A stretch of DNA of 60,965 nt, counting the filler, from Sphacelaria rigidula (taxonomy: Eukaryota): the NCBI GenBank assembly GCA_964200075.2. It is 6 parts of 6 records of this genome, joined end to end, with 100 filler letters (N's around TTAATTAATTAA, not from the genome) between each part and the next. Parts side by side here need not be neighbours in the genome. Positions count along the whole stretch, not along the records: positions 10,179 to 20,256 come from CAXNAA020007194.1; 5 more parts are not named here. One strand, 5' to 3'. The notes beneath the pieces are model-generated. The model saw only the letters and a list, made by a program, of their open reading frames with translations, did not search any database and was not told the origin of the DNA. The translations under genes and the position numbers were made by a program. Below, one piece after another: positions 3,901 to 45,244 of this stretch (position 1 is the stretch's first letter; every line of letters begins with the position of its first letter).

Positions 3901-6821
3901 TCTCGGGATAAGACGGGATAATGCGTACCGTATCACCGGCTCATCTAGCGGTCACCCATACTGGGCTTGTGACCCGAACCCATGAAACGTGAATACACGG
4001 CAGACCGGAGGGAGGCATGACCACTGAGGACTACGACTTCTACATCGATAACGACTGCAGCACAGGGGAGCATGTCATAACCCGTGTCAGCTACCACGAT
4101 ATGGTCGTAGAGTACGCCAACTACTTTGCTAATGGTGAGCTTCTGATGTGTATGTGCGCATGACTCAAGCACTTGACGTTAGTGTCTGCAACACAGTACG
4201 GGCCACCGTTACTCTACGGCCCGCTGCCGCCGCAATACAGACCATGCTGTATCTACTTCGCCACGGTAGTGTCATCTACCAAAGTGACATTGTGTGTGTG
4301 TTCCTGCATTGTATTCAGCTGTTGCACTCCGGGGACACGATGACGTAGGTACCTGCAAGAAGTTCTCCCTATTCGCAGTGGTAACTCATTGAATGGCGAA
4401 CGAGTCTATGTGTCGATGAATGCACCCGAATAAGAGCAAACCCTAGCTCAAGCAAAAGGAGAGGCGGGAATTATGCATTCTCGTCAGATATCACAGGGCA
4501 GGATTCCGCTGGCCTGACGCCTCTGGATTACCCTTCCAAGATATACCTCAGCCATGTTTTCGTCCACGTCAATACCGGCGGCCACGCTGCTCCCTGTCTC
4601 ACGGTGGCAAGACATAACGCCCACCACCCACCTTGCTCCACCTACCCCCGTGTTCCCGTGTTAATGCCACAATCTTTTGCTAAAATTGATCGCGCGGTGT
4701 GCTCTTGGAAGGCCTAGCGCTGGGGCTCGGAGGATCCCACCAGGTAAGCAATGATCCGCTGGCACATTGCTGTCCAGGCATCTCGTCTTTGCCATGTGTG
4801 CCCACACACGCCGTCTCGTTTCATTCCTGGAGGTGGTTTTATCGACGCTGAGCGCAATGCATCGATGCTTGCCTTCACTCACTGTTGGCGTACGAACCTT
4901 TAGCCGCCACTGCCGGATGTGTGCCATCCCATGGCAGGATTGCAATAGGCCAGCGAAACCGCAAACTGAAGCCCATGACGCGATGTTCAACGTTTTGCAC
5001 CAGAATGCACGTATTCCATGAATACCCTGCGCTTCGTGTCATCCGTGCTCATGTTTGACCATCGATGCGTGCTGCCTGTTTGGGTAGATTGGGGCGTGTG
5101 AAATCGCTTGAGTACAGTAGAGCCCTGTCGCTAGTTGTGCAGCGCCGTGTACAGTAGTGTTACGGATAGCCGTACGGTTCGACCAGTCGACTGTTTTAAA
5201 AGCGGAACCCCAACAACAGATGCCCCGGTGTAGCGGACGATCCCATGAGCATGTCATTCCAACTTTCATGCTGCTTCACTTCGCGCATGAGCCATTGTTG
5301 TCTGCACGTTCATTTCAGGTTCCTGTAAACGATGACGGAAAGCAAATCGGATTCGATGTCGTCGCGGGCCTTCTTCTGGAGAAGCTCGAGTCTATGGTAA
5401 GCGGACACACATTGCCCTGCTCGGGAAATATCATGGCATATCATGTACATATCACGTACGTCGTAACAATCTCTCGTGGATGTCTGTGGATGTCTACGTG
5501 ACACCACTGCTTGAAGATGCGGCAAAATTGTCCCAAGGGACGTTCTCGACGTGCTGGAAACTTCAGGAATCGGCAGCATGCTGGTAAAGTATTCGAGTAT
5601 GATTCCGTACACCTGATGCCTTCAACTGGCCAAGCTTTTGGTTTTGTTGTGTGTGTAGATGTCCAACGTCAACGATTGTGCATGAAATCGACGACTTTTG
5701 CTATGAAGGGATCATGCTGTGTAGAGCGTGCGCACCACGTTCCTTGCTGTTGGGTGTTGTCCTGCCATTCATTTGCATGCCTTTCGCTGACGACTCTCCT
5801 TTCTGCGACATTGTTTGCATATTTTTGATCCGGCCCGATTTCGGAAACATGTGCTGATACTGAAACCTGCAGGGAGCGAAGATCTATTTTCAGCACCAGG
5901 TTTACGCTACGCAGCCTCGTGTCAAGCACGGCAGCGGGGCCATTGTGAAAGTTACTGATCTGAACAGCGGCGACAAGCACAGGGTTACGACCGAACATGC
6001 TGTTCTCAACATCCCTTCCGAGGTGAATGAGTCGTCGTCCATAACATAGCGTAAGTAGGGCATTGTTCCACACTGTTCGTCGATTTCATTGTCCACACTG
6101 TATTCGGGAACACTTGACGCCATTTTGTCGCGAATCAGATTCTTCTCAGCGTCACATCTCTTATTGATGGTCAATCAAAAGTGACCCACCCACAACAGTG
6201 TTTCGTGAAATTGAGAGAAGAGGATACGATTGAGAGTGAAGAACGATCAAATAGTGAATGAATCGTTTCAGTTCCGAAATGCCCCTCCACGAGGCCCAAC
6301 ATGCTTTCTGTAGTGCCTTGCCACTGAGGCTCTTAATATCCCTGACTAGGATATCAACGTGTAGCTGTGAGCTCACGGAAGTGATGGAGACAAAAAAAGG
6401 TACACACGGAATGAAAAAATGGCTAAGTTGAAGCGAGTGATGAAAACCACTCTCAATCAGCGCGCCACTCTCACTCTCACGAAATTATTGTTCTACCTCG
6501 TGGGAGGGATTTGCGATGGATGCAAATATAGGGGGGATCGTTTCTAGTTGAGTTTTCCCGGGCTTATTGTGTTCCGTCTTGAACAATTCCTGTCAATGTT
6601 CGGTGCACTGACTATTCGTTCACCGAGGGAACGAGGAAGTGCCTAGTTATGTTTATCACTGCCTGTTTTTTTCGCAGTTTCAGTCGGACGTTCGACTACC
6701 GTGATGATGCCAATCATTACCCGTCGATATTGCTCACTTGAATCACAGTCCGCTGTGTGAGATATGGAGACATAAGTTGACAAGCGCAGATGCAAGTAAT
6801 TGGAATATAGCCGGTGAATAC

Positions 6822-7522
6822 CAGGGATTATCACCGGACTTTACGACGGGACAAGACGGTATCGCCCCCCTCCCGTACCTTCGTCCAGGAATACGTAACT
6901 CCTCTGAAACAAGTACTGGAAGGCCAAAATTTCGTCACGACACAGTTACCGGTGTTCAGGTACAGCGTCCGACCACAGCACTTGAATCGATTCACACTTG
7001 CGACGGAAAACAGGTCTCGTCCCGTCCGGTCGATTTACTGGGACAGGAATTCCCATCTTGTCCCGTCCCCAAGCCCCCTCGCTAACCCTGGCTACGAATA
7101 TTGTGGCCTCTCACCGTTAATGTAAATCATTCACGGATATGCTGTGGAAGAGACCAGAGTATCAAAATTTAAACCCAGGCTCCCACACACCACGCAAATA
7201 CAGACATACCCACGTTTCCCCCAGATTTGAGGGGAGTTTGTGAACTGTGTCGGGAAGTGTTTCGTGAGGACGGCACGGGACGGGAGCTTTTGCCGGGGTC
7301 GGGACGGGATGATGACGTTTCCCCCGCGAAAAAGAGCGGGACGGGACAGGAGTTGTCCTCCATCGCCAAACAAAAACAGGATGGAAAAAGACTGTTCTCC
7401 CGTCGCCAGAAGTACGATTAGACGGGAAAAGAACGCGTTTACATCGCCGAAAACGACCAGACGGGACGGGAACTCTCGTCTGTTGCGATTTTTCGTGAGG
7501 TTATTTTTAGCGGCAAGCCCTG
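6822..7522. mobile_element. Cluster of MITE-like elements rich in GACGGGAC subterminal motifs
   Basis: Many gacggga/tcccgtc motifs in both orientations, with CAGGG...CCCTG-type ends at 6822, ~7089 and ~7522. No TSD confirmed. Confidence 0.4.
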
Positions 7523-10078: not shown

Positions 10079-10178
10079 NNNNNNNNNNNNNNNNNNNNNN
10101 NNNNNNNNNNNNNNNNNNNNNNTTAATTAATTAANNNNNNNNNNNNNNNNNNNNNNNNNNNNNNNNNNNNNNNNNNNN
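10079..10178. other. Artificial contig spacer
   Basis: N44-TTAATTAATTAA-N44; the linker has stops in all six frames. Confidence 0.98.
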
Positions 10179-13100
10179 GCTAAGATCGTTCGGCCCGAGG
10201 CCTACTGATTATCTTGCATTTGGATGGCAGCCTACAATGAGTTGCTTTATCGGTACCCCACCTCCAACGCTGCCACGGTTGTATAAGAGTTTCACCGCGT
10301 TTGGGGGCGGGCGAGAGGTAGTCTAGTACCCCCCTCCCCCCACGATGGGTCCCAAATAAGAAGTGGGTACGTTGGTGTGCGACGTTCGTTCTTCGTGCAC
10401 CCCTGGTCCATCTGTAACATGAACAGCAAATAACAACCAGTGCTGCACATGAAACGCGTGCTCGCGGTAGAAAATCGGTAGCCACCCAACCGCGAAATAT
10501 CACCTGGATCGGCACTAGCGTCGCTTGAAAGGGGTAGTACCTAGCAGCTCTTGATACCGTGGGAGCTATCCCTTCCACTGTGTATCGAGTGCTCTGGTTT
10601 AGAGCAAAGTATAGCGATTGAATGGGAAGGCGGTTGGATGCCGTCAATTGATGTGGATGTACTTCGGCTCCATGCGGACAGATCGCTCCCGAATTCGGCA
10701 GTTCGGCAGGAATTGACGCTCCAACTGGAAACATATATTCCTGAAGATATTTCCAAGTTTCTCCGCTCTTTACCGGCTTCCGGGGGTCCAGGCGTGGAGA
10801 CCCCCGGTAGCCGGCACAGACTGCCTCAAACGTTTTACAACCCGATGAACCGCTGCAACCGGGTCGTTCGCACGTGAAGCGTACCCGAAAAAGGAGTTTC
10901 TAATAAAAAAGCAAGGAGTCAAGAGGTTGTACGGGGCACGGTAAACTTTTGAGTGCTCACCCGCAAAACCGCACGCCCGAGTTTTAAGTTTTACTCTGAA
11001 AATTTACTAAAATGTGGTATGTGCCATCACGAAACTTTATACATCGACGGGGGTTGTACTTATCTCTTTACTTTGCCGGCAATCGACGGTCCCCGTAGGG
11101 CATGTGATCTCCCAAATCCTCTAAGGTATTTGGAGGGGCGGGCCTCGATGAGGTACAGTAACCTCTTGGGCATACATGACTCGGATTGAAAGCAACATTC
11201 GGATATGAATCTTGGATTGGGCTGTTGGGGGACGCGGGTGTCTTGGAAAGATCTAGATTGATGTTCCGAGATGTGAACAGCGGTTGATTAGGGATTCATT
11301 TTGCATGGTTGAATTGGCCTGTCGGCATTTCTTTGGTACGTTATGTGCACGTGCATGGGCCAGCAACATCTCGGTTCACGTTCCTGCCGTTAGCTTTTCG
11401 TTCTTGTGTCATGACCATGTGTGAATGTAATTCTTGGCGTAGATTTCGGGGTCACTCGTCTTCGTTACCTGGATACAATCAGCTTTGGTCTGCCCTTGCA
11501 CTGAGTTCCAAATGAGTCCTGCCGGTGAGCCGTAGTCGTGAGGACTATTGGCTTCTGGTTAGTAATTATACAATACAAGTAAATATCTCATTTCTGCGAA
11601 AGCCTTGAATTAAATTGCTCCACCCCAAACCCTGAGACAATCGATAACCGACGAAAGTGGGGAGAATAACCCCCCGTCCATGAAAGTGTTGTCGAGTTTA
11701 ACTCCGGAACCCGGCGTGAGTCTTTGCGGGTTAGTATATGTGGGGGTGATTAGCGTGAATCACCCTGCATAATGTACTGGGTAGGACCTGAAAATATCGA
11801 GTATGTGCGATTTCCAGATGGTTCGTGGTTGAGTTTGAAATGATCAAGGGCAGAAGATAGATTTCGCGAACACGCTGATGTGCCGCTCAGGCATGTACGC
11901 TTGTTTGCGCACTGGTTGCTGAAGCGGATTATCCTCAAGCTGCGAGCCTCGCCTCGCAATTGCTCCGCCGCCTGACAGCCCAGGGAATCCAGGTGTTTTC
12001 AGTGAGCGGGGGGCGGGGTTGGGTGGTGGTGGTGGGGGGGGTGGTTCCTGCCCCCAGATTAACCGAAAAGGTTACAAGTCAATCACGCGTGTGTTGAAGT
12101 TTCTAGGGGGATTCTATGAGTTGGGCATCAAATCCGAATGGAGCGGCGTGACCATTCGGCGAATTGCTCGTTTTTGATATTGTGCCTCCCCGTAGAATAC
12201 CAACATTACATCCATCTCGCGGCCTAGCCGTATTTTGTCATCATTTGAGTATGCACCTCACGGTCATTGAAAACACCACACACGGCGATACTTACTTCTG
12301 GCTCTGTGCGTACTCTCGCCCCTCTACCCCGGTCCCGCTTGTGCGGTCAAGATGGCCTCACTGTCGCATCATCATACCGCATTACAAAAAAATGTTGTTA
12401 CGGTGCAGCATTATCATCAGCAGCAGCAGTGCCGGCAGTCAAGAACTACAGTCGAGGCGACGTGACATGTCTGCACGATCGAGACACATTCGACGTGTGC
12501 GAGCACGTCCCCGAAAATAACCGTCACTACAACTTGATGAGCCCGAGTGCCGTGAAAACATTCTCTATTTTTCCAGCGCGTCTCGTTTTTTCAATGCACG
12601 ACATCTGTGTGTTTGATGCGAAAAGGCATCAACTTTTGCGATAAAATAACAACTATGGACCCGGGTGTGCCATAGGTGTTCAGAGGTGACCCGTGGGGGT
12701 CGCAGCCTGAGGGTGAAACTCTGACAACCCGTTTTTTGCTACGCTGACTTTCAGCTTCCAGGCTTCCGCGAGAATCGCCCCTAAGCAGCTGAGCCAAATT
12801 TACTTGTGTTCGGGCGTATCAGGATATCATCAAACCATATACATACTATGAAATCATATACATGTATATGTATTATATTATATATGCACACACATAAAGA
12901 GAAGGGTCGGGTTTTCGGTCCTCTCGGATTGCGTCTATTCTTTTTACCTTCTCAACTGTTGCTCACCTTAGACACGTCATCTCATGGATAATGACCACGA
13001 CTGCGTCCTTACGGGAGCAGTTAGTGAACGACAATCATTCAATGAACCGACCGAATCAACTTCGATTCCCCTTGTTTATTTCGACTATTGGTCCTCTCGC

Positions 13101-13181
13101 TTCATCTGACGGATTCCCTGGCCCATCCCTACCGCTCCTCGTTTCTCCGCCTTCCGGCACCTTCGACCCGGGGCACGACAG

Positions 13182-13202
13182 CTGCGACGCCTGCTCCGAC
13201 CA
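13182..13202 (+). CDS. 21-nt linker micro-exon (xATPAPT) of the modular Cys-rich protein gene
   Basis: gacag|CT GCG ACG CCT GCT CCG ACC A|gtgagt. Preceded by a long AG-free pyrimidine-rich stretch and a ctgac branch-like motif (~13106). Phase 1-1. Confidence 0.6.
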
Positions 13203-13354
13203 GTGAGTATGTAGTTCTTGGCGCGCTGTTGCACTATTGTGGCTCCAGCGCGAGTCCATGAGCAAGGTAGAGGTCTGCGCGTTGAATCTCGTTCTCTCAA
13301 TCGCCGTGTTGAAACGTAGCTGTGTGCGCGTCACTCCATGAGGGTGTCGAGAAT

Positions 13355-13693
13355 ATGTGTGTGTGTTGTCCCATTTATTCTGGACGCCGGTCTACACCTT
13401 TCGATATATGTGGGCTCACCCGCCGGGGTCACACAAGAGGAAGGTCAACACAGAGTTTTTTTTTTTTCTGATACCCCACCTTCCTTCTGCGGTGATTGCC
13501 TTTATTTTTTCATCGCGAGAGGGGTTCAGCATTTCCTTTCCCTCGTCGACGGTTGAGTCGCATTTTGTGTACCGACGACATGGTCGCTCTCCACTGTTGG
13601 GTATGGTGTAAAAGAAACCCCAGATCGCTCCGAGAATTGAACCCGACCCAACCGTCAGAGGGTCTCGAGGTTACCAACTGAGCCACCGGGGCG
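13355..13693 (-). mobile_element. tRNA-derived SINE, near full length
   Basis: Minus strand starts gccccggTGGCTCAGTTGG (A box)...GGTTCAATTC (B box), then a conserved body and a (CA)n tail. Several copies in the window. Confidence 0.85.
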
Positions 13694-14171
13694 GGTAGGG
13701 GATATGTTCAAAAACATATTCGATTACTTACACGGCCCTCCCCAATAATGATTTTTTCCGTCGCGCATAGTTCCAATATATATTTTCGCTTAGGTCTCCT
13801 GCAACCAGCGCGGTTTATTCCGCCTGCTCGTCGGGCTTGTTCGCATACAGCGTGGATTATGACCCCCACCCAAAACCCACGCCCCTAGAACTTGCAAAAC
13901 GCAGCCGTATCCCTTGTTCCAAAAGTTACCGTCGTAAAAGAAGTGAAGCATCTCCAAGAAGAATACCCAATACGATCAATTCAAAAACTTGAAGTGAACT
14001 ATTCTCCACACAGCTATGGTCCCAATGTGCGTTCATGATGGACATACAAGAGTACAGGTTAACCCCTCGGCCGCATTCCATAACTGGGCTGAATCTAATC
14101 GGATTAAAACCTTGACCCGGCATATTTGTCCATGAGGAAAGGCTCCGAAGTTTATCTAGAGAGTCTGGTTG

Positions 14172-14345
14172 GCATCCCATCTGTTCTGGACGCCAGTCTA
14201 CTGCACCTGGTGGGAGATACAAGCGCCTCAGCCGGGGTCACACAGGAGTAAGGTCAGCACTGCAGCGTTTTTTAGCACTCACCTTCCTTCTGAGGTCCCT
14301 TACCTCTTTTCTATCGCGAGAAGCGCGTCGGTTCAATACTCCATC
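14172..14345 (-). mobile_element. Partial, diverged copy of the same SINE
   Basis: ctggacgccagtctac...gccggggtcacacaggag...ccttccttctg...atcgcgaga. Confidence 0.7.
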
Positions 14346-14955
14346 GTTCAAGTCAAAAGTGCAGAGAACACCAGTGTGTATGTATGGCCAACGATATGCA
14401 AGAAAGTACACAGCCTGGTCCCACGAAAGTGTTGTTTTGCAATGAGTTCGGTTCCCAGCCGCCAAAGGGCACCGTCACCATGCCGTATTTGGTGTCCCGG
14501 GATGGTGTGAAGAGATCAAGGTGTGATCAGAGCGCACGGCGTCTAGGTTATCTACACGGCTGCAGGTAACCTACGTGTTGTGCTACTATTTGCTCCCGGT
14601 GCTCCTATTTGCTCCTGAGACACATAAGGAGGTCACGCACTAATCATCTTGCATGCCGTAGTCATACTGTACGACCATTTACCTCGCACCCCCACAAAGC
14701 CGGGATGAAGCACGCCGGGTCCCCGCCGGAGTAGGCTCGCAATCAATCACCGAGCGCGAAGCACCGTGACAAGAGCACTAGCTAGCAGGGTACATAGGCA
14801 CGCGCTCGTCGCGCTCGACGCGCGTGATGTCTAAAGCCGCGAGTTTCTTCCGTTCGAGTCTTGAACTTTTCTACCTCTTGACTCAAGCATATCCCTGAAC
14901 ACTTGTACGTCTCCTCCACCGGTGATTACTCCTTCTCATCTGTATCAAACATAAG

Positions 14956-15165
14956 TCGCTGGCACATGCAACGACGGTGCTATTGTTGGTGTGGAGTCGG
15001 AGTATGATGGCTTTTGCTGCGATATCGGATGCGGCACATGCGGAGGCGATAACTGTACCGTAAATGCCGCAGCGGCCGGCCTCGTTGATGGAGACTGTTG
15101 CACAGCACAGATCAACATCTCCGGGGACTACTGCGTCGACACCGATGAGGCACCGTGCATTCTGG
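14956..15165 (+). CDS. 10-Cys domain exon 1 of a modular, probably secreted protein
   Basis: aag|...|gtgagc, 210 nt, phase 1-1; AGTCNDGAIVGVESEYDGFCCDIGCGTCGGDNCTVNAAAAGLVDGDCCTAQINISGDYCVDTDEAPCIL. Confidence 0.85.
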
Positions 15166-15728
15166 GTGAGCTCCTACCAACTACGGTGTAGTATTACCAG
15201 TGAAGAAAGGGGGTCCTGCTGTGGTGAGTACATTGTGGTTGCGTGCTACAATAGTACACGAGGGCATGAGGAGGCCGTCCGGACACGGCGTGGCAGGATC
15301 ATGGTTCCCTTATAAACGTAACACGGCACTGGCAGGAGATTCCTAGAAAGTTAGTTGAGCATGATCAACGTCATGGAACTGCATATAAGGGTCAAGAGTG
15401 CTGCACCGAATTTGCCTTGTATTCAAACACTGCATGTTGGGATCCGATTTCTTCGGACTGATCGGATAGACCACGCTTGCAGCTTAATTTGCATATCTAA
15501 TTCTGCGACCTCAGACGGCAAGTGAATGTTGGTACAAAACTGGTTCGTCTCGCCCCGTTTCGTCGAGTGTTCCGTGCTACGAGTATATGTTGTACATGTT
15601 TCCACATTTCCGCCCCGTCTTGTGGTGTTGGGCAAGGAAAGAAGTGCTCGTCCCGTTTTATGTTTCAAAACACGCATACGTCCCGTCCACCAATGATTGT
15701 TCGTCGGTTGTGTGTGCTAAATCATGAG

Positions 15729-15932
15729 GGGAAAAACCTTTGTGCAGCGACGGCACTGTCGGAGAGGAGTCTGATGGCGCCTGTTGCTTGGCAGCATGCG
15801 AAAATTGTGGAGGATATGGTTGTGACACCAGGGCCGAACTGCTCGGCGTCAACGCGACCGACTGCTGCACAACACTGATATATGAGGCAGGCGTCTACTG
15901 CGATGGCACCAATGAGGCACCGTGCATCCTGC
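15729..15932 (+). CDS. 10-Cys domain exon 2
   Basis: gag|...|gtgagt, 204 nt, phase 1-1 (acceptor is a weak GAG); LCSDGTVGEESDGACCLAACENCGGYGCDTRAELLGVNATDCCTTLIYEAGVYCDGTNEAPCIL. Confidence 0.8.
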
Positions 15933-18900
15933 GTGAGTTCTCATAATCGACGGTGTAGTACTATAACTTGAAAAAGAAGTCGGTCTTACCGTGGCAGGCA
16001 GTACGTGATGGTCGCGTCTTGGTCCTGTGGTAGACAACAATTTATGGTGCGTTCATAAGGGTGTGAGGGCCGTATGTGGATACCAGTTGGGAGGATAAAC
16101 ACCGCGCTCTCATAAAGAAGCACGGCATTGACGACAGTCCTACTATGAGAGTGTCCGCATTCCTTCCGGTCGTCCCGACATATTTTTCAGTCGAGGGTGG
16201 GCGATGACGATGTGTGGACTAAGTCGCATCCCTTGACGGACCGAAGCCAGGGAAAGTACATCATGCGTGCTTGAGTGGAAAGCTCTCGTGAGGGTTACAG
16301 AGCACCGTTTTTGGTGAGTCACAGTGCATCTGTCTTGAAGAGCGTCCGAATCCCTCACATAGACTGCGGGCGCGGGTCCCATGAAAGAGGATTTCCGCTG
16401 CCGGTGCAAGCCCCATTTTCGATCTTGATGTCAGCGGCGATTACGTTTAGATGTTTCATCGTCGATACACACATGCCTTACTGCCATTCACTCGCCGACC
16501 GTTCCACGCCGAGTATGAAGCTACAGAGGCGCATTGGGGTAATGGACGGAACCGAGGATACAACGTAAGTTCAGACAGGGAATCATACAGAACACGAACT
16601 GGATGAATATGTGGTAGGCATCGTTTCTCTAGTAAATTTTGGTTTTCGCTCCGGTCTCTCCTGACGGTACGCACAGGTTTTCGATTTGTGGTGCTTGCAG
16701 AGTTTGTCCCCGATTCGACCTCAAAACCCCGTGGCTTAACAGGCACCCGGGTTCACCGCAGACCTATCTTCCTTTGATCTTCAGAGGGTCCGATTGGCCG
16801 ATGTCGTCGGTCGGGTCCAATTCCCCGTGAAAAACCGCTTTGGCATTTATTGCGAGGATATGAGCCAAACAGAATGATTGTCGTGGCATATCGATATATG
16901 GTACCACTTATGTCGTGTGATTACACGAAGATACACTCGTGACTACATGACCGCGAGACGTTCGGCCTGCTGCGTTCCGTTTTGTTAAGTGTACTTTCAA
17001 GCGTCCCCATAATTCGGTAAATTATAACAAACATCGCAGGTTCTAGGGCTGGACGCTGCGCGCTCGATCTCTACTTCGTCGGTGCGAGTTACAGAACGCG
17101 TCGAGTATAATGGATGAGAAAGAGTTTCAACGTATTTCATGTCAGATGGGCTCTATAATGTTGCCACTTTGATAGATAAAAAGGGCGTAAAACAAGATGG
17201 AGCGCACTTAGTCGCTACTTTGGTGTACCATGGCTCCCGCGCGGACCGACTCCGTGATGTTGCTAGAGGCTGCTGCTCCCAGTGATAAATCGCTCTCGAC
17301 TCCAGAAACCTGACGCTGATAATCGTGGGGTTTGGTGGGCTGACATGGCTCGCTCACTGAACGCGCTCGGTGAAAACATGCGAATATATTGGCTCAAACT
17401 TGCGGTAGATTGGAGCTTTGTACGAGTTGTGTGTTGGCATCCCCTTTTCGGTTCCTTCTGTGCTGATGGAAAGGACCGGAACCTCCTGCGCCACGTGGTA
17501 CATGAGATCTACAATATGCATGGAATCCATCAACGAGTAGCCATTTGGACAAGGGTTTTCGAAATTTCATCTATGCCACAAATGACACATCGCGACGAAA
17601 GTACATTGTTATGCCATCTTGAAATATCGGAACCCAAACTCCAGCCATCAACGTGTAGTTGACATTCCTGGTACACAACACGCGTCCAACAGTGATTGTA
17701 CAGTGTTGCACGGACCTCCAAGCAGGATGAAAATGTTGATCGATGTATGTTTCTTCATCCGCGGAAAAAGAAAAGTGGTGGTGCGTGTCTTCCGTGCTTC
17801 GTGAAGCAAAAGGTTTACGAGTATACAGTGGGTGTAGTACAAGGGCCGAACGGCTTGGACCCGCGAGCAACAGGCGTGAACGATGAAACCGCCGCCCTCA
17901 CTATGCTGCTAAAGGAGTATTTTGACCGCATCTCCTACATGGCACCTGTCGAGATGATTCTACGTGCTATGGTTCAAGATGCGTCGGAAATCTGTCGAAC
18001 CGATTCCCAACGTGATGAATTTTGCTGCAAATGAAGGAGACAGCGAAGATGACACCACAATGAGCAAAATTCACATAATCGCGCCAGGCTACGGGGACAA
18101 CCTTGGCCTTCGATGTTGGCTGGTAGTATGTCGTACTCATTGTGATGGCATGTTTTATCACGCCTTCCGAATCAACCGTGTCTCGTTTGTGGAGGGATGG
18201 ATGGTATAAATCATCAAACGAAAACAGGTGGAACGTTGCACACACGGCACATTTCCCCCCGGCATCAATCATGATTACTCCGGGTTGGGTGCGGCGATGC
18301 GGCACACAGAACATCGGTTTCCCGCGTAGGTACCTCAGCCGTGCTCCGTATTATTCACACAGCACGCTTGAAAAAACGCATACCAGGCAATACCAAGACA
18401 TCAATTCCAGATTGCTAACCTCTACCAGTTGTACCCCCACCGTTCAGGTACCGCACGCCGTGTACCGTCGTTATTCTGCCAAAATCAAGCTCGACACGGG
18501 TACTATGCAATCATTGTCCGAAGTAAAGCTTCCGACGGGAAGCCTGGGAGACATAACTGTTTAATACGCACACTGATACATTTCTTGTTCACATTCGACA
18601 TCATTTGTGGAACCAATCATCTTGTCGATGCGGCCACAAATGCTACTCGTATTTTGGATGGGCCCCAAAATAGTTTGTTGGGTGGCTCTCGGGGATATAG
18701 GGCGTGGTGTGAACATACCCCAATCGTCGTCCTTGACGTCGTTAGTCGTCTAATGGCAATGCAGGGATGTGCGTGATATAATTCCGCCGTCCGACAAACC
18801 GGCCACGTGAAGGGGGAATGATAGTTCATAACTTCTACAGGTAACTTTGAAACTACGCCAGAGCGCTGATGGTGAGATGTCTCGGTCATGACAACGGAGG

Positions 18901-19368
18901 CGCGGCTGGCCGTGCGAACGTAGTAGTACGTGAACTCGACGACGCTGATCGGCAGGAAGGAAGGGTGGATTACTCACGTAGGAAGGTTTTCAACCGCGCT
19001 TTGCCCCGGCTTCTGTTTCGCATTTAATATGCATGAATGATGACTTGAAAAGCACACATAGCGAAACGCACAGAGATGATCACGAAAGCATGGTCGCTCG
19101 CAGCGGAGTGAACGGAGCGCCTTGGACGTTCGCAGGATGCTCTCCGCGGTCGGTCACATGTGGTACATCGCGCGAATGGTTGCAAAGAGCGATCCCACAG
19201 TAGTGCGGGTGTCTGCCATGGATGACCACCCCTCCGCATTGGATGGCTCTGGTTGCTATATTGTTCGATCACATCATGTTTTGTGCCCAACTCGCTGCCC
19301 CATCCGCGCCGCTGCCCGTGTCTCGACATTCTGGCGGATTCGACCTACGCGCACCACGGACCCGACAG

Positions 19369-19404
19369 CTACGGCAGCCTCGATGCCAGCTATGACGCCA
19401 GCCC
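19369..19404 (+). CDS. 36-nt linker micro-exon (xTAASMPAMTPA)
   Basis: gacag|CT ACG GCA...CCA GCC C|gtgagt. Same gacag|ct acceptor context as the 13182 micro-exon, AG-free upstream, phase 1-1. Confidence 0.6.
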
Positions 19405-19653
19405 GTGAGTATCAGTATTGACGTATTGCTCCACCGTGATGGCTTTTGTACGAGTCAACAGGCAAGGGAAAGGTCTTACGATATGTTTGATTCACCCAAC
19501 CACATCCTTGATGTAGCTTTGAATGTGCGTCAAGCATAGTCAGCGAAAGCACGGGATTTACTTGAGAAAATCCATGATCGATTGATTCAAAAATACATCT
19601 ACTGCCCCCCTCTTACGCATTTGCGTCCGTGTCAACGTCTGTTCCCCATACAG

Positions 19654-19842
19654 CGACGGAGTACGACCGTTGCACGCAGTACGACGGTATCCGGTTCAAC
19701 CGAGCGTGCTGTCCGGAGGAATGCGGAGATTGCCAGGGCGAATTCTGCGAGTATGCCGGGGACTATTGCTGCTCTGACAGCGTGTTGGACACCGGACTCG
19801 TGTGTGGTTTGGACACCGAAGTTGCTCCCTGTTATTTCCCTA
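19654..19842 (+). CDS. 10-Cys domain exon 3 (divergent)
   Basis: ttccccatacag|...|gtaagt, 189 nt, phase 1-1; TEYDRCTQYDGIRFNRACCPEECGDCQGEFCEYAGDYCCSDSVLDTGLVCGLDTEVAPCYFP. Confidence 0.85.
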
Positions 19843-20139
19843 GTAAGTCTTACCGGCATCGGTACCAACGTACCAACTGGAGACTGAAATTTGCTGAACT
19901 ATGCCATTGCGTATTCACCACAAGCTACTGCCACATGGCCGTTGTGAGGTATCCATACTTCGTGTATCGTTTTCCGTTGTAGTATGAATAAAGGGCTACG
20001 AAAGGTGCCTGGATCGGTTGTCGCTGTGGTACATGGGCTGCGCAACCGCGGAAATATAGGAAACGCGAACATGAGTGGCCGCAATTTCGTATTGACGTGT
20101 TCCACATCACCAGTACGACCCTCGCTATCCTTGCCATGA

Positions 20140-20256
20140 TCTCGAGACGCCCCACGCTAACAGGGTTAGGGTTACGGTAACGCTGATAGGGGGGGGGGTG
20201 TACTCATGATCATGCATTTCATAGTCATAAGACCATTGACCTCGCATCCCTACAAT
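20140..20256. repeat. Dispersed repeat with degenerate (TTAGGG)-like core at the contig end
   Basis: Matches ~50655-50789 (gagacgcccc...gggttaggg...G-run...gtactcat...gaccattgacc.cgcatcc). Weaker relatives near 570-640 and 55030-55070. Confidence 0.65.
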
Positions 20257-20356
20257 NNNNNNNNNNNNNNNNNNNNNNNNNNNNNNNNNNNNNNNNNNNN
20301 TTAATTAATTAANNNNNNNNNNNNNNNNNNNNNNNNNNNNNNNNNNNNNNNNNNNN
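20257..20356. other. Artificial contig spacer
   Basis: N44-TTAATTAATTAA-N44. Confidence 0.98.
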
Positions 20357-21005
20357 CCCTTCGCACCCGCACGCTCCTGCCAGACGTTGTTAAAGGAGGA
20401 GGGGGGCGAGGGGGGGGGGGCGGGGGTAGTTTTCGTCGAGTACGGCGCTGCCAAAAACCGACTTAATGACGAAATTTGTTCCGAAAACCAGGGGATAGGC
20501 GATTTTCATCCCCGCAGTGAATTTTCCTCCTCTTTTTTCCCCTTAAAATGAACTGCACTAACCTCATTAACGTTTGTACTGAAGGAGAAGGTTTGAGACG
20601 TCTACGGTCGCGAGAAATCGAAATCAACTGCTGCGTAAAGTGTACCGTAAATGAAACGGGGGGTGTTTTCGCCGCATTTTTCACGTTAATAGAGCCATAC
20701 TCCACATCTACTCCTGCAACTTGGTTTGCTTATTTTTTCAATTTTGAAAGGCTTGGGTGATAAAGGATTAATTTTTCTCTCTCCGGATACTCCGGGCATC
20801 GTTCCACGTGTCGTTGTTCCCACGAACCGGAGTTTTTCCCTTGAGCGTACCTCAATTGGGATTATTATCTCTAACTTCCGAGCAATTCGAAATGATATCA
20901 GCTATTACCGGACTCGAATCCGAGAGCGACCACGAAGACGGAGTAGAGCGCACCACCTGAAGGTGCGCCCCGGATAGTACCTCACTCCCGGGGAATCTCA
21001 ACGAT

Positions 21006-23115
21006 GTGCCGTCACCGAAACCCTCCCGTAGTACGAATTTAACAGGGAGCGAGTCTATTCACGCACCAACGCTCGAAAGAAAGGAAGAAGTTGTTGCGGT
21101 CGCCGAACAAATTGCCGCAAACAAAGATCACAAAGCCCAGGTTTGGGTACAGGCAAAAATCTGGCACCCTCATAAGTTGAGCATGCGACTTCCTGTCTCC
21201 GTCCTGTTGGACACGGGAGCTGGTGGGGGAAACTACGTGCCCGGTACTTTCTGGCAATCGATTTGTAAGTGGGGAGGAATACCTGATCGCAAACTAGAAA
21301 AGGGAGATGCAGGCGCGTTGAGGGCAGCAAACGCAGAGGAAAACAAGGTACCACCAATGGAAATCCTAGGCTCCTCCACAATACCAGTCGTCTTCCCCCC
21401 AGAAGATAAAGTACGCAACGTCGTAGTACATGTAGTCAAGGGCTTTCCATACGCACTAGTAGTGGGCGCAGTATTGTTCCGCAAACACTCGAGCGTCCTG
21501 TCATTTGACCAACAGCAAGGCTTCCGCGCTACGCCTGACACACCATGGATACCGGTCGACACCTGTAGTTCGATATTCTCGCCAACTACTAGACCATCAA
21601 GTGCGACCCCGTTGGCAGCGAAAGATATCCAAGTGTCGGATGGTTTGGACAATAGGCCTGACGTGGCCGAGGGGGCCACGCCAGAAAATACAAAATCAGA
21701 GACGGCGCCGCTGTCAGCGAAAGAAATCCAAGTGTCGAATGGTTCGGAGGATATGTCTGACGTGGCCAAGGGGGCCACAACAGATACTACGCCATCAGAG
21801 ACGGCCCCGTTGTCAGCAGAAGGCATACAAGTGTCGAATGATTCGAAGATTACACCTGACGTAGCCGAGGAGCTATGTGACATGTTCTGTGCTGTCATAC
21901 CCAGAGAAGGGGCCGAAGAACCAGAGCTTTACCCCCCGTTTCCGCTAGACGCCTTCACCCCCTCTATTGCAACGATCACAGACAGGATAGTCAGTGGCAC
22001 ATTCATGGGTAAGGCAGTTTGGGAAGATGACGGTACGCCGCAGTGGGCATTTTCCCTATCCTCATCGCTACAACTACCAGGTTCTGTCAGCACAGCAGTA
22101 GAGGGACGTACCAAGGGTCCCCTCTCTCATGTATGGCGACTGATACTGATATCACCTACCGAGGATTATGATTCGGAGAAAGGCGCGGTGCTAGGCGTAG
22201 CGAGAGGTATCCAGTGGTGGGAGCCAGGTACACCCGTTGTATACAAGGTAGTGAACAGAAGCCCCAACCAGAGCCTCGTTGTGGCAAATCAGCAGATAGC
22301 CCAGACAGTGGCGGTCAATATCGATGATGAAAAACGCTTCCGCGCGTTATTTCTGCCATCTAACCCTAAAAACAGCAAGGATGACACATCACACTCTACA
22401 CAACCACGGAAGAGAGATGGACGATGACACGTCAATCATGTCCAATCTCAATGACGCCAACCTTGGACAGCTTAGCGCCCCTAAAAAGCAAGAGCTCTTG
22501 ACACTGCTCAACGAGTTCCGCCGTCAGGGAATTTTTCCAGCAGACCCCAAAAACGTCCGCCCTTGTGATCAAGGTAAGATTCACATACCGTTGAGAGATG
22601 AACGATGTAAACCTGTGGCAACAAAGCAGCGACGTTTTTCCGCGGACGAGACTGAAGCAATCCAAGCAGAAGTAAAGAAACTTCATCAACGTGGTATCGT
22701 TCGGCGGTCAGAGTCGGGATGGGCAGCGAGATCCCTCGCGGTACCAAAAAAAGGCGGCACGCTTCGCCTATGTCATGACTTGTGACGGTTTAAGACAGGG
22801 AACGAAATGATCTCACGGAAACAGACAGCGGAGGTCTGGAGGACATCGACAGCATGCACGACAAGCTATGTGGAAATAAACACTTTTTCACATTAGATCT
22901 CACCTCAGGGTACTTCTAACTCGAAATCGAGGAGAATGACAAACACAAGACAGCCTTCAGAGACGCCCTCGGCCAACTTTAGGAGTACAATGGGTGTAGT
23001 TTTGGGCTGAAGAATCTCTCATCTGGGTTCACCAGAGGTATCTCCAAAACCCTAGGTACTCTCATTGACAAAGGAGTTCAGGCATGGTAAGACGACATCC
23101 TCATCTTCAGCAAAG
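21006..23115 (+). pseudogene. Ty3/Gypsy pol fragment: aspartic protease plus disrupted reverse transcriptase
   Basis: VLLDTGAG protease motif. RT motifs PVATKQRRFS, VPKKGGTLRLCHD, LDLTSGYF*LEI, KHKTAF, FGLKN and W*DDILIFS, with several stops and frameshifts. Confidence 0.9.
21597..21870 (+). repeat. In-frame 99-bp (33-aa) tandem repeat, about 3 copies, inside pol
   Basis: PL(A/S)AxxIQVSxxxxxxxDVA three times; gtgtcg at 21633, 21732 and 21831. Confidence 0.9.
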
Positions 23116-23519
23116 CGCTATCAACAGCCTGGATTCGTTTTTGAGGTTCAACATTTGATTGAGGTTCAACAGACCATCGAAATTTCATTTACTTTGTTCA
23201 AAAGGCTTAGGATTCGCAAGCGGTTTCGACCATGTGCCCCTAACTCAGAAGTTTCTGCACGACAGCGAAAGCATGATGGTGAGCAGTCCAACCGAAAAGC
23301 CGCCCTCATTCATTGTGCGGCATATTTTGAGCATCCCCTGCGTCTAAGCGCTACGGAACACGTGAAAAAGCATGCTGAAAACATACTTCTTTGGACTAGC
23401 CATCGAGTTTTCGAGCGCCTCTTGTTGTGTATCTGAGAGAGACTTCACACTGTTGCGCCGGCGACGACCGTCGTCAGCGAAACGATCCAATGCGGCGGCA
23501 TACGCCAACGATCTTTGGA

Positions 23520-25976
23520 ACTATAGCCTCTGCCAGACGATCTGGACAAGAGGGCTATCCACGAGGGACTCCTCCAGTAGCACTGGCCTCGTGCTCAACA
23601 AGCACTCTCATAGGTACTTTCTCCTCGACAAAATTCAATCCGGAGCTCACCACTATATCACTCATCTCAGGAGATCCCCGCTTTGCAGGCTTCCAGTCCG
23701 CTCCTGCGAAGTAGCAGCACTGAAACCACTACCTTCTGCACACCATAGAGCAACAATTCCTCTCGTACGGTAGCTCCTAGCAGCCACATCTAGCACCCCC
23801 ATGATGAATCTCAACATGCCACCAAACAGCATATCCTTAGTGCCGAACCAATGCGACACATACTCTGGCTCCACAGAAGGCTGTGCGGGCTTCAACCACA
23901 CGAAGTTGCTCACATCGTCTTTGATCACCAAATTATCTTGGATAGAATCTCCGTCGTCCAACCCACCATTGTCCAGCTGACCTCTCGCTCCATCGCCGAG
24001 TAAATTGAATTTCATCACCTCCTCAGGGCGAGTACCATGCACCTTATCCCCACCTTGCACCATATCCTCGTGGCGAGGGGGAATGTGCGCCCCCATCTTG
24101 GATTCTCTCACCCGTCGCGAGCAGAAATTTCCGGCAAGTTCGTCGCCGCTCTCTCAAAGCTTGACTGCAAACTGCACTACAGTAACACAAACGCCACCAA
24201 AACTGCAACGCACGAAGCTAGCCACCCGACCTTCACCGGATCGTTGCAATTGGGCTGGGCCTTCGCAGCCGTCGCCTGTGACTGTGGCTGCACCCTCATA
24301 GACGGTACGGCTCCACTCTCAGGAGCTTCCTCTTCATTTCCACCTGTATCCTTCTTGCTCTCACTTTGGAACGACCACTCAGGGACGATCACCCGCCTAC
24401 CCGGAAGATAGTTGGGTTTGTTCACCCCAGTCTGCACCGGCACAGCACGCGGGCGTAACTTTTCCAAAGCCAGCGGATACAAATCTATATCCCGAGTTCC
24501 TTCATAGTCGCGATGCCAAACAACACCACGTTGTTGTTGCCAGGCATGATCGCGAAAGTGATTGGCGATATCTCCACAGCACCCCACGGCGTTCACACGC
24601 TTACAGCAATAGGCACCGTTTTTTTATAAATAGTCACGGGCGCACCCATGGCGCTCTGTGCCATTTGCGTTTCATTTTCAAATGGTAGCTGTAGCTGGGC
24701 GCATCCAAACTGTGAAGACATCTGTTGCAGCAACCCCACACTTATTGATGTGAGTGCTGATCCAGAGTCAAGAAAAAACGCGAGCCATAAATGAACCAAC
24801 AGAACCGAGTATAGATAGATCAGCGCGCAAGCATTCTGCGCTACGGTCGACAGGTACCACACCTGCCGAAGAAAAACTCTGGTTAGTACCTAGAGTCACT
24901 TGACGCCAAGGCAGCGCTCCAGTACTTGACATCGATGCTTTTGTATTCGTCGCAACAGTGGAAGATACACCAGACACGAACCCTGCCGGGCCTATGGGTT
25001 GCGAGCCTTCCGCTCCAGCACTCCCCACCAAAGTATTACCTCCTCCCACATATGTTAGCCGCCTCGACACAGATGAACCTAGAGATCTAGCGTCATCACT
25101 TGAAAACGCACTCAGGGATACACTTCTCCGTCGCTTGGTTTCGTTTTTGGCCCCTGCCTCTACACCCTTATCTCTGGTTGCTCCAACCTTGTCCGCCATA
25201 ACGACTGCCTCGAGATCTTGACCCATCTCACGTATTTCCTTGCGCAGCGCATTTAGCGCGAGGCTTGGGGCAAGTTCTTGAAATATGCCCATGGTTTCCA
25301 CAATTGTAACACGAGCGAGTGAAAAACGCTCGCGAAGTCGGCAGCTGTTCCTGTTGCTTGTGCTCGCCATACCTTGACGTTTCTAACGGTTTATCCCAAA
25401 CCAGCGGCATCGTTGCCGCTTGAGCCATGTTCCCTATGACTCAAAATCACAGATAGACTCTTGCCTTACTTGAGCGTCCCTCCCGCGGAGTGTGTTCCTC
25501 CAAACGCTGTGCGCTGTAAGCTGTCTTCCGTCTGCGGGCTGAACTAGCTCTATGCTGCAGCCCAATCCCTCCTCAGCCAAAACTCCTCTAACAGAGTGCT
25601 GGAAGAATATTATCTAGAGGGATGCTACGGTAGGGGTGCACAAATATTTTCTGAGATTGGAATTGTTAGGTGCCCTCTATCTCATGCAAAACACGACCTA
25701 TGAAAAAATATGAAAGTACGCCAGGATTACTACTCCAATATGCTGGGGATATCCCGAATGAATTTGCAAACGGGGTTCCCCTGACCCATATTTTTGTGCA
25801 TGTAAAATCATTAGGAGCCCCCGAACCAGACATAATTTCGTGAAAAAAGTGCACCCCTACCGTAGCATACCTCTCTAGATACTGTAGCCTCTGCCAGACG
25901 ATCTGGACAAGAGGACTATCCACGAGGGACTCCTCCAGTAGCACTGACCTCGTGCTCAACAAGTCATTTCTTCTCA
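23520..25976 (-). mobile_element. Internally deleted Ty3/Gypsy LTR element
   Basis: Gag zinc knuckle CYNCGNHGHISRTC (~25270-25310), protease FLDSGS (~24760), integrase remnant LVIKDDVSNFVWLKPA (~23900), no RT seen. Direct repeat 23520-23602 / 25881-25963 marks the LTRs: 5' LTR ~25471-25976 (TG...CA) and a truncated 3' LTR 23520-23610 preceded by a purine tract. Confidence 0.8.
25613..25879. mobile_element. Tc1/mariner-type MITE inserted in the 5' LTR
   Basis: ~30-bp TIR tctagag..atgctacggtaggggtgcac, flanked by TA on both sides. Related copy at ~60008-60303. Confidence 0.8.
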
Positions 25977-26129: not shown

Positions 26130-27273
26130 GAACGCAGCATCATTCAGCAGTCTGCTGAGATATACCATCACCAGAGCACAGCTTCACCACAGTACAGTGG
26201 TCACTTGGATCAAATGGGTGCCCCACAATAAAGCTGCAGACACCCACAACGGGGGTAAGGATTAGTCCCACACCTGGGGTTGTTTCACCAGTAGTGCCCA
26301 TGCGAGGCGCTTCATCTAGTGTGAACCAGCTATCCCGCCTTGTATGGCCACCTTCGCCGTGGCTGTGTTGAGAACCGGTTCCGCGGTGGAGCTGTTGAAC
26401 AATACTACTGTTGTAGTGCAACGCACTTGAAAACTCCGAGCCGTTTCTTTTGTATTTCAAAGCCGCGGCAGCTGACACTTTCTACGATAGCCCCCTCCCC
26501 CCCCAAAACCAGCTAAAAGTGCCGCGAAAAAAATGGTCATTCGGCGCCTGATCTTTGGGTTCAGGCTGCGTGAAGCGCGCCTCATACTGGCGACATTGAC
26601 CAGAACGAACCCAAGCGTGGGAATTCCCAGCTTCTCGTTGTGTTCGGTTTTTCCCATTTCGATTTACGTGACGATTTTGCCTCCCAAGACCATGCACTTT
26701 GGGGGGGGGGGGCTATCGTAGAAAGTGTCAGCTGTAGTCTGAATATTTCTCCTGACGGTCCCAAACGGGATCTGATGCAGCGACGGAAAGCGCTGGCACC
26801 ATCCTCCTCAGATGGGATTTGTGACAGCTGTGGGGGTATTTGGTGAACATCGCTCGGAATGAAACATGTACAACAGTATTCAGGGCTATCGTAAGTACAT
26901 CTTTTCCCTGTTCAAAATCGAAATTTCCTTGCTTGAACATTTTACACCTGTTACAATGAACGACTGCCTTCCAAGAAAACAACCCCTTATTTCCGGAGTT
27001 CCCCTGGGGTCTAATCCCAACGCTGAGGTTCTCAACACAGCCACGGCGAAGGTGGCCATACAAGGCGGGATAGCTGGTTCACACTAGATGAAGCGCCTCG
27101 CATGGGCACTACTGGCGAAACAACCCCAGGCGTAGGACTGATCCTTACCCCCGTTGTGGGTGTCTGCAGCTTTATTGTGGGGCACCCATTTGATCCAAGT
27201 GACCACTGTACTGTGGTGATGCTGTGCTCTGGTGATGGTATATCTCAGCAGACTGCTGAATGATGCTGCGTTC
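26130..27273. repeat. Inner inverted repeat with ~247-bp arms (26130-26376 / 27027-27273)
   Basis: gaacgcagcatcattcagc...gtgttgagaacc matched in reverse with a few substitutions. Confidence 0.92.
26469..26734. mobile_element. MITE
   Basis: TIR cagctgacactttctacgatagccccc / gggggctatcgtagaaagtgtcagctg. Confidence 0.85.
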
Positions 27274-30200: not shown

Positions 30201-30434
30201 CTTCTCCTTCAGTACAAACGTTAATGAGGTTAGTGCAGTTCATTTTAAGGGGAAAAAAGAGGAGGAAAATTCACTGCGGGGATGAAAATCGCCTATCCCC
30301 TGGTTTTCGGAACAAATTTCGTCATTAAGTCGGTTTTTGGCAGCGCCGTACTCGACGAAAACTACCCCCGCCCCCCCCCCCTCGCCCCCCTCCTCCTTTA
30401 ACAACGTCTGGCAGGAGCGTGCGGGTGCGAAGGG
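27270..30434 (-). repeat. Right arm of the 3165-bp inverted repeat, holding a second copy of the Gypsy pol fragment (27676-29785)
   Basis: Reverse complement of 20357-23521. Confidence 0.97.
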
Positions 30435-30534
30435 NNNNNNNNNNNNNNNNNNNNNNNNNNNNNNNNNNNNNNNNNNNNTTAATTAATTAANNNNNNNNNN
30501 NNNNNNNNNNNNNNNNNNNNNNNNNNNNNNNNNN
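30435..30534. other. Artificial contig spacer
   Basis: N44-TTAATTAATTAA-N44. Confidence 0.98.
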
Positions 30535-40612: not shown

Positions 40613-40712
40613 NNNNNNNNNNNNNNNNNNNNNNNNNNNNNNNNNNNNNNNNNNNNTTAATTAATTAANNNNNNNNNNNNNNNNNNNNNNNNNNNNNNNN
40701 NNNNNNNNNNNN
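40613..40712. other. Artificial contig spacer
   Basis: N44-TTAATTAATTAA-N44. Confidence 0.98.
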
Positions 40713-45135: not shown

Positions 45136-45137
45136 AC

Positions 45138-45244
45138 GCAACAACGACAACCGCGATAGCAACAACCGCGACGACGACAACGACGACGACGACGACAACA
45201 ACAACATTCGCGACGACAACAACGGCAGCAACAACGGCAGCAGC

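What the first reader, a model, noticed from the sequence alone, without database searches (positions are those of the whole stretch)
13182..19842. Cassette-type gene built only of phase-1 symmetric exons: 10-Cys domains plus Pro/Thr micro-exon linkers
Seen in sequence: five + strand exons (21, 210, 204, 36 and 189 nt), each a multiple of 3, each phase 1-1, each with a strong GTRAG donor. Three encode exactly one acidic domain, C-x11-15-CC-x3-C-x2-C-x4-C-x6-13-CC-x10-C-x7-8-C, with fixed cysteines, variable loops and N-glycosylation sequons (NCT, NIS, NAT) in two of them. Two encode only ATPAPT-type linkers. Established: symmetric phase-1 exons are the hallmark of exon-shuffled extracellular modules. 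Inference: any subset can be skipped, duplicated or reordered without a frameshift, so this could be a combinatorial system producing variable cell-wall, adhesion or recognition proteins. I cannot assign the domain to a named family, and the gene's start and end are not visible in this contig.
Basis: partly seen in the sequence, partly recalled or inferred. Interest (0 to 1): 0.75.

Follow-up and report, generated by a model that had tools for sequence, protein, structure and literature searches.

The report
Shuffled ten-cysteine seaweed surface module
This is part of a brown seaweed gene built from a small, apparently unnamed ten-cysteine protein module that sits on its own exon and has been attached to many cell-wall enzymes and surface proteins, with relatives on sugar-cutting enzymes of myxobacteria and giant viruses.

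Summary
The five exons are real: 21, 210, 204, 36 and 189 nt, all phase 1-1. They sit in one 10-kb contig of a brown alga; proteins labelled Sphacelaria rigidula match sister contigs exactly. A duplicate locus keeps all 30 cysteines and has no exon indels. One low-depth, probably RNA, contig fits a spliced linker-domain-3 product of that duplicate.

The domain matches no Pfam, NCBIfam, PHROG or PDB entry, yet it is common: at least 39 whole copies in this genome and 1,207 clusters elsewhere. In brown algae it is fused to alginate epimerases, PL41-type lyases, WSC, LRR, CAP and M12 domains. In Myxococcota and giant viruses it is intronless, mostly on polysaccharide enzymes.

Best reading: a mobile disulfide-bonded extracellular accessory module, spread in brown algae by slow class 1-1 exon duplication and shuffling, probably tethering proteins to the wall. 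Binding is inferred; no aromatic residue is conserved.

A combinatorial diversity system is not shown. There are no inverted spare exons, no sign of positive selection, and copy number is stable in orthologues. The scan noted an analogous 6-Cys system in another genome, not this module.

The parts
13182..13202 (+). 21-nt phase 1-1 linker micro-exon (ATPAPT)
   Evidence: CAG/GTGAGT sites; linker scan and control; lies outside the stretch shared with the duplicate, so least supported
14956..15165 (+). Domain exon D1, 10 Cys, sequons NCT and NIS
   Evidence: AAG/GTGAGC; 87% identical copy in C5700; AlphaFold2 pLDDT 91.9
15729..15932 (+). Domain exon D2, 10 Cys, sequon NAT; older tandem duplicate of D1; unusual GAG acceptor
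   Evidence: 74% DNA identity to D1 across the exon end into the intron; AAG at the same place in C5700
19369..19404 (+). 36-nt phase 1-1 Pro/Thr/Ala linker micro-exon
   Evidence: CAG/GTGAGT; kept in C5700 with 2 changes; depth arithmetic fits 30 nt of it in contig 32 of run X9
19654..19842 (+). Domain exon D3, divergent 10-Cys copy
   Evidence: CAG/GTAAGT; X9 contig 32 aligns 19656-19842 with the 14 differences of the C5700 copy and stops at the donor
10179..20256 (+). Host contig G000:C7194; 13622-20165 is duplicated at 87-92% identity in G000:C5700

Best explanation
The exons are the middle or C-terminal part of an ordinary secreted or surface protein of a brown alga. SHOWN: each domain exon encodes one copy of a ~60-residue module (C-x-CC-x3-C-x2-C-x4-C-x-CC-x10-C-x-C, ending in APC). 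It occurs in tens of copies in this genome, mostly on phase 1-1 exons with Pro/Thr linker exons between, and in many unrelated protein contexts elsewhere. INFERRED: the ten cysteines form five disulfides outside the cell; the module is non-catalytic; phase symmetry let it be duplicated in tandem and moved between genes over evolutionary time; the linkers are glycosylated spacers; the tandem modules tether the protein, or an unseen N-terminal enzyme domain, to the wall matrix. For these acidic copies (12-13 Asp/Glu, 0-3 Lys/Arg) the most likely route is calcium bridging to alginate or fucan, or contact with another wall protein. Odds: modular exon-shuffled family 0.9; wall-tethering role about 0.55; N-terminal partner is an M12 protease about 0.25.
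For: Family size: 1,207 clusters at E<=0.001; 665 of 769 domains in 258 proteins fit the 10-Cys pattern; 39 whole and 15 partial matches on 25 own contigs. Phase bias. Complete paralogue P0197 on C5444: hydrophobic leader exon, four domain exons, Pro/Thr/Ser tail, hydrophobic C-end, 4 of 4 introns phase 1. Partners: 32 of 150 top proteins carry a Pfam family, 18 of those carbohydrate-related; AlgG-like epimerase P0023; MEP10, CBM1 and integrin-beta fusions. In 44 bacterial and viral ORFs, 29 carry a carbohydrate-active or lectin partner. Constraint: exons differ at 39 of 639 sites versus 590 of 5,716 in introns (p=0.0005); 0 versus 32 indels; all 30 Cys kept. One spliced-type contig. Confident model, pLDDT 91.9.
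Against: No aromatic position is conserved among 651 domains (highest 21%), unlike classic carbohydrate-binding modules. 14 of the 32 Pfam-bearing proteins have non-carbohydrate partners, and 118 of 150 have no Pfam family. 19 of the 29 prokaryotic partners are one lyase-like family with matches far below the curated cut-off, so they are not independent. Only 23 of 38 whole copies show both phase-1 sites by the simple scan, and some copies are split by phase-0 or phase-1 introns. Only two of five AlphaFold models were confident (91.9, 81.7). dN/dS of 0.69 is weak constraint outside the cysteines. A likely next exon in C5700 is 61 nt with a stop, so that copy may end there or be damaged. Leader and partner of this gene are unseen.
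Confidence: 0.7

Rival explanations
1. Combinatorial recognition system: regulated skipping or rapid rearrangement of the symmetric exons yields many variants for self/non-self, gamete or pathogen recognition, as proposed for brown algal ROCO LRR exons.
For: Symmetry permits it. Five Nemacystus g13520 models differ by 66, 69, 92 and 161 residues, and two Cladosiphon g14807 models by 80, each whole domains with or without linker. Weak acceptors on D1 and D2. A 15-copy subfamily is expanded in this genome. Surface residues vary freely.
Against: 0 of 16 multi-copy contigs hold inverted copies, the ROCO hallmark (PMC3341825). Same exon order in both copies of this locus despite 10% intron divergence. 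dN/dS below 1. Four-domain relative stable from Discosporangium to Laminaria; only Ascophyllum has 9. The isoform models are predictions over near-identical repeats.
Confidence: 0.15
2. The module is a purely structural spacer or cross-linking unit (rigid rod, protease-resistant stalk, intermolecular disulfides) with no ligand of its own.
For: Conservation is almost confined to Cys, Gly, one Ile/Val and the Ala-Pro before the last Cys. Many proteins are only modules plus linkers. Partners are of unrelated kinds.
Against: Single C-terminal copies on many bacterial enzymes fit a targeting tag better than a spacer. An Arg is kept in 48% of copies.
Confidence: 0.25
3. The locus is a decaying duplicate (pseudogene fragment) of a family member.
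For: GAG acceptor at D2; repeat insertions in introns; dN/dS not different from 1; no leader exon found in 3 kb upstream; the RNA-like contig carries the C5700 alleles, not the window's.
Against: No stop or indel in 639 aligned exon bases; 30 of 30 Cys kept (p about 0.001 at the intron rate); exons significantly more conserved than introns.
Confidence: 0.12
4. The cysteines bind metal ions (Zn/Cu cluster, metallothionein-like) rather than forming disulfides.
For: CC pairs and a CxxC; many Gly; no solved relative.
Against: Hydrophobic leader in 95 of 163 full-length-looking relatives by a crude test; sequons; secreted partners; ten strictly spaced Cys.
Confidence: 0.07

Closest known systems
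Class 1-1 exon-shuffled extracellular modules of animals (EGF-like, LDL-receptor class A, TSP1, sushi); own knowledge
   Same: Small Cys-rich module on a symmetric phase 1-1 exon, repeated in tandem and fused to unrelated extracellular domains.
   Different: Unrelated sequence; brown algal lineage; also present without introns in bacteria and giant viruses.
Brown algal ROCO LRR and NB-ARC-TPR exon shuffling (PMC3341825, PMC11378527; passages read)
   Same: One repeat per symmetric exon in a brown alga; tandem duplication; possible skipping.
   Different: Those are fixed-length exons (72 nt, phase 2 for LRR) with inverted or dead spare exons and positive selection, in signalling proteins. Here exons vary (189-216 nt), are phase 1, alternate with linker exons, and no inverted copy was found. 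PMC3341825 screened for equal-length exon pairs and concluded that shuffling is overwhelmingly restricted to LRR/TPR loci; that filter would tend to miss this family.
WSC domain (PF01822) and small disulfide-rich carbohydrate-binding modules CBM1 and CBM18/hevein
   Same: Small Cys-rich accessory modules on secreted wall enzymes; WSC and CBM1 co-occur with this module in brown algal proteins, and a hevein-type domain in one unlabelled protein.
   Different: No Pfam match; different Cys spacing; no conserved aromatic platform; binding untested.
Ectocarpus 'FirrV-1-B30 precursor' proteins / PL41 alginate lyases (SjAly; PMC6426991)
   Same: P0193 bears this name and ends in four of these modules. 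The paper notes a 171-281-residue C-terminal extension in four Ectocarpus homologues.
   Different: The name belongs to the beta-helix lyase part. In the passages found the paper neither describes nor names the extension. No lyase exon was seen in the window's contig.
EsV-1-7 cysteine-rich domain (bioRxiv 10.1101/2024.02.19.579948, passage)
   Same: Brown algal Cys-rich repeat, expanded, shared with viruses.
   Different: Described as a possible zinc finger; no Pfam match to it here; this module is found in secreted proteins.

Membership tests
Class 1-1 shuffled extracellular module | Module flanked on both sides by phase-1 introns | tested here: met
   27 of 28 donors and 32 of 37 acceptors phase 1; both in 23 of 38; 4 of 4 introns of P0197
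Class 1-1 shuffled extracellular module | Occurs in unrelated multidomain proteins | tested here: met
   WSC, beta-helix, LRR, CAP, M12, VWA, S53, deacetylase, GH26, lyase partners
Class 1-1 shuffled extracellular module | Same flanking introns in the differently fused genes of other species | not tested
   Only this genome's introns were examined; no other brown algal genome was held
Class 1-1 shuffled extracellular module | Secreted, disulfide-bonded | tested here: inconclusive
   Leader in P0197 and in 95 of 163 relatives by a hydrophobicity rule; this gene's N-terminus is missing; bonds not measured
ROCO/NB-ARC-TPR dynamic exon shuffling | Repeat exons of identical length | tested here: not met
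   189-216 nt over 23 exons
ROCO/NB-ARC-TPR dynamic exon shuffling | Inverted or inactivated spare exons in introns | tested here: not met
   0 of 16 multi-match contigs with mixed strands; a few partial matches (C15020, C24894) may be dead copies
ROCO/NB-ARC-TPR dynamic exon shuffling | Positive selection on repeat residues | tested here: inconclusive
   One pairwise dN/dS of 0.69, Fisher p 0.32; no site model run
ROCO/NB-ARC-TPR dynamic exon shuffling | Alternative splicing of repeat exons | not testable with these tools
   Only contigs of runs guessed to be RNA were available
Carbohydrate-binding module (CAZy sense) | Non-catalytic domain contiguous with carbohydrate-active enzymes | tested here: met
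   In relatives: 18 of 32 and 29 of 44; not seen for this gene
Carbohydrate-binding module (CAZy sense) | Demonstrated carbohydrate binding | not testable with these tools
   Needs an assay
CBM1 / CBM18 / WSC | Family profile match and conserved aromatic binding residues | tested here: not met
   No such Pfam family matched any of 31 copies at E<=1; aromatic share at most 21% per column
PL41 / FirrV-1-B30 lyase | Right-handed beta-helix catalytic domain | tested here: inconclusive
   No such exon in the contig, but the gene is cut at both ends
M12B protease with module tail (as Ascophyllum P0034) | M12 exons linked to the module exons | tested here: inconclusive
   D1 and D2 group with the P0034 tail (SH-aLRT 95); none of 26 contigs or part-contigs screened (22 picked for M12 matches) held the module

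The most novel reading that the evidence does not exclude
The module is a new fold that binds anionic wall polysaccharide without aromatic residues. It was exchanged among myxobacteria, giant viruses and algae. Brown algae boxed it in phase 1-1 introns and now vary the number and type of modules on wall enzymes and surface proteins by regulated exon skipping: a third, extracellular exon-shuffling system beside ROCO and NB-ARC-TPR. The parts differ in odds: new binding module about 0.45, regulated combinatorial splicing about 0.15, both about 0.1.
Probability: 0.1. Interest if true: 0.85.

Novelty: new member of a known kind. Interest (0 to 1): 0.52.

Why it matters
Brown algal wall proteins are largely unannotated. 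This module is on alginate epimerases and PL41-type lyases, enzymes that set the mechanics of the wall and have industrial use, yet it has no profile, structure or, in the papers I could search, name. A profile would annotate more than a thousand clusters, and single 60-residue domains are easy to express and assay. It also qualifies a published statement that exon shuffling in Ectocarpus is overwhelmingly restricted to LRR and TPR loci. Its presence on polysaccharide enzymes of Myxococcota and giant viruses suggests one targeting device shared by algae and organisms that degrade glycans. The particular gene fragment in the window is an ordinary member of the family.

Tried and rejected
Named family: Pfam 0 of 3 and one E=0.18 chance row for 31 copies; NCBIfam 0 of 3 domains; PHROGs 0 of 5; PDB sequence 0; Foldseek PDB 0; VIA-align 0 of 48,161 at Z>=2. 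A missing match does not prove a new fold, least of all for so small a domain. ESM Atlas gave only hits of 0.80 or less to unnamed clusters and none for a four-copy protein.

Full-length protein for this locus: none.

Expression: no RNA holder listed. Runs X9 and X10, RNA by guess, gave no cover over D1, D2 or the first linker; a part without cover is no evidence either way. DNA runs X4 and X5 showed no exon-sized joint among the rows printed (288 rows hidden), so strain variation in exon number is untested.

Gene ends: no leader exon upstream; no second copy of the first linker region; no continuation of C7194 found; a candidate exon at C5700:7913 lies in a repeat and was dropped. M12 link unproven.

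Origin: the tree (199 rows, 63 columns, 20 starred branches) cannot resolve direction of transfer. It held 38 own, 84 brown algal (at most 2 per protein), 40 bacterial (capped), 7 viral, 14 metagenomic and 16 other rows. A single-protein search of viral contigs found nothing.

Literature: nine searches found no name for the module. A recalled label, DICOTA, gave 0 papers with 'brown alga'. The 2016 Glycobiology paper on Ectocarpus epimerases was not held, and a recalled 2017 brown algal secretome paper was not looked up by id. Either may describe the module. No supplements were read. No complex prediction was run.
Full report
Setting. The window is six contigs of 10,076-10,078 nt joined by N-spacers. 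The finding lies in the second, 10179-20256, which is G000:C7194 of a 244-Mb, 27,214-contig genome. Two database proteins labelled Sphacelaria rigidula map onto sister contigs C5444 and C1101 with 453 of 454 and 495 of 495 residues identical, so the organism is that brown alga or very near it.

Observation. The five exons are at the stated places, with lengths 21, 210, 204, 36 and 189 nt, all phase 1-1, all with GTRAG donors, and open when joined. Three encode one 10-Cys domain each. Weak points: D1 uses an AAG acceptor and D2 a GAG acceptor, with a frame-shifting CAG 19 nt further on.

The exons are under constraint. Contig C5700 duplicates 13622-20165 at 87-92% identity. Exons differ at 39 of 639 sites, introns at 590 of 5,716 (p=0.0005); indels are 0 versus 32; all 30 cysteines are kept. 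Outside the cysteines constraint is mild: dN/dS 0.69, not different from 1. Whether C5700 is a paralogue or a divergent haplotype is not settled; 10% intron divergence favours a paralogue (inference).

Splicing evidence is small but specific. Contig 32 of run X9 (238 nt, depth 3.3, RNA only by guess) aligns to 19656-19842 with 14 differences. These equal in number the differences of the C5700 copy over that span. The contig stops at the donor although the next 18 intron bases are identical in both copies. Its length splits as 31 + 189 + 18, and the depth in the neighbouring bin (0.29) equals 30 bases of the 36-nt linker laid at that depth. I infer a spliced linker-D3-next exon product of the C5700 copy.

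Family in this genome. Four protein searches named 25 contigs, all fetched (C4276 only to base 10,000). A profile found 39 whole and 15 partial matches, a lower bound. In 38 whole copies with at least 9 Cys, a donor was found in 28 (27 phase 1) and an acceptor in 37 (32 phase 1); both were phase 1 in 23, with exon lengths 189-216 nt. Random positions gave equal thirds. Pro/Thr micro-exons gave 21 candidate rows on the sense strand, 12 of them phase 1-1, and none antisense. One complete relative, P0197, has a leader exon, four domain exons, a Pro/Thr/Ser tail and a hydrophobic end, with 4 of 4 introns in phase 1. P0225 shows the exception: two domains split by phase-0 introns.

Family elsewhere. 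The profile hits 1,207 clusters. Named hits span Discosporangium, Choristocarpus, Sphacelaria, Ascophyllum, Laminaria, Undaria and Ectocarpales, plus Vitrella and Rhynchopus. Of the top 150, 32 carry a Pfam family: 18 carbohydrate-related (WSC 7, deacetylase 5, beta-helix 4, GH26 1, alginate lyase 1), the rest LRR, CAP, M12, VWA, S53, copper oxidase and TSP1/PAN. P0023 resembles the alginate epimerase AlgG, below the curated cut-off, and MEP10 of Ectocarpus carries several copies. The bacterial ones are mostly Myxococcota or 'deltaproteobacterial' bins, including two complete Sorangium chromosomes, plus Microbulbifer okhotskensis. Two viral loci are giant-virus bins and two lie on 255- and 548-kb viral contigs. 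Of 44 such ORFs, 29 carry a carbohydrate-active or lectin partner, but 19 of these are one lyase-like family with weak scores (the second call took 30 of the 44). The best viral fold match is a Satyrvirus protein (probability 0.97, E 0.053).

No name. Pfam, NCBIfam, PHROGs, PDB sequence and two fold searches found nothing, although the best model is confident (pLDDT 91.9; two short strands pairs and four short helices or strands listed). The label 'FirrV-1-B30 precursor' on P0193 refers to the beta-helix lyase part; PMC6426991 (passages) mentions only a C-terminal extension. Passages of PMC8307928, PMC11468063, PMC13235733 and bioRxiv 10.1101/2024.02.19.579948 did not describe the module. Two subscription papers that I recall but could not read may do so.

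Mechanism. By established knowledge, symmetric phase 1-1 exons can be duplicated or moved without frameshift, which is how animal extracellular modules spread. The data fit the same slow process here: D1 and D2 share 74% identity into the following intron; a 15-copy subfamily arose in this lineage; and the module joined many unrelated domains. The function is inferred from company: a non-catalytic tether for secreted glycan enzymes and surface proteins. Against a classic binding module, no aromatic column is conserved in 651 domains; conservation is in Cys, Gly, one Ile/Val, Ala-Pro and a half-kept Arg. The window's copies are strongly acidic, so binding to alginate would need calcium. A spacer role stays open. 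D1 and D2 group with the tail of an Ascophyllum M12 protease (SH-aLRT 95), and this genome has many M12 genes, but no screened contig links the two.

The combinatorial reading. ROCO LRR exons are fixed-length, often inverted in introns, positively selected and alternatively spliced (PMC3341825 passages and section 17; PMC11378527 passages). Here exon lengths vary, 0 of 16 multi-match contigs mix strands, exon order is the same in both copies of the locus, and the P0197-type protein keeps four domains in 10 of 11 orthologue-like sequences, with nine in Ascophyllum. In favour, gene models of Nemacystus g13520 and Cladosiphon g14807 differ by whole domains; their support is unknown. I put it at 0.15.

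Verdict. Interest 0.52. An earlier scan note (e1-7216659) reports an analogous 6-Cys exon system in a protist; I did not test it and it is not support.

Noticed in passing
window 10079-10178, 20257-20356, 30435-30534, 40613-40712, 50790-50889: Identical 100-nt spacers (N44, a 12-nt all-frame stop linker, N44) join six size-sorted contigs; nothing across them is real neighbourhood.
   Followed up: yes
window 20357-23521 and 27270-30434: The contig's two ends are a 3,165-nt inverted repeat with one mismatch, each carrying the same 488-aa frame with an aspartic-protease-like motif and a reverse-transcriptase-like start (likeness recalled, not searched). Assembly artefact or inverted retroelement pair.
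   Followed up: partly
window 44219-45322 (+) and 46674-48005 (-): A gag-like frame and pieces resembling a subtilisin-type protease gene (likeness recalled, not searched).
   Followed up: no
G000 contigs C11258, C1566, C15762, C18865, C2279, C555, C9274: Expanded M12B protease family; in these seven the zinc-binding HExxH motif is degenerate, suggesting pseudo-proteases; some are followed by Pro/Thr and WSC-like exons.
   Followed up: partly
L029 (C5700) 7335-7395; L101 (C21386) about 3810-4026: After the D3-type exon both contigs have a Pro/Thr-rich exon-like stretch with a stop shortly before a GTGAG donor: last coding exon with an intron after the stop, or damaged linker exon.
   Followed up: partly
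L101 2895-3086: Third D3-type exon, phase 1-1, with 8 rather than 10 cysteines; the upstream linker region is duplicated and looks decayed.
   Followed up: partly
L174 1420-3558: A deacetylase gene with four modules on a short contig of a Verrucomicrobiales bin closely resembles the giant-virus gene in L116; possibly a misbinned viral contig.
   Followed up: no
L205, L206, L179, L211, L222, L223: One deltaproteobacterial bin carries the module on at least seven genes, three of them adjacent.
   Followed up: no
window 13360-13700, 14200-14800, 20190-20256, 10179-10250: Very high-copy short repeats in the introns and at both contig ends.
   Followed up: no
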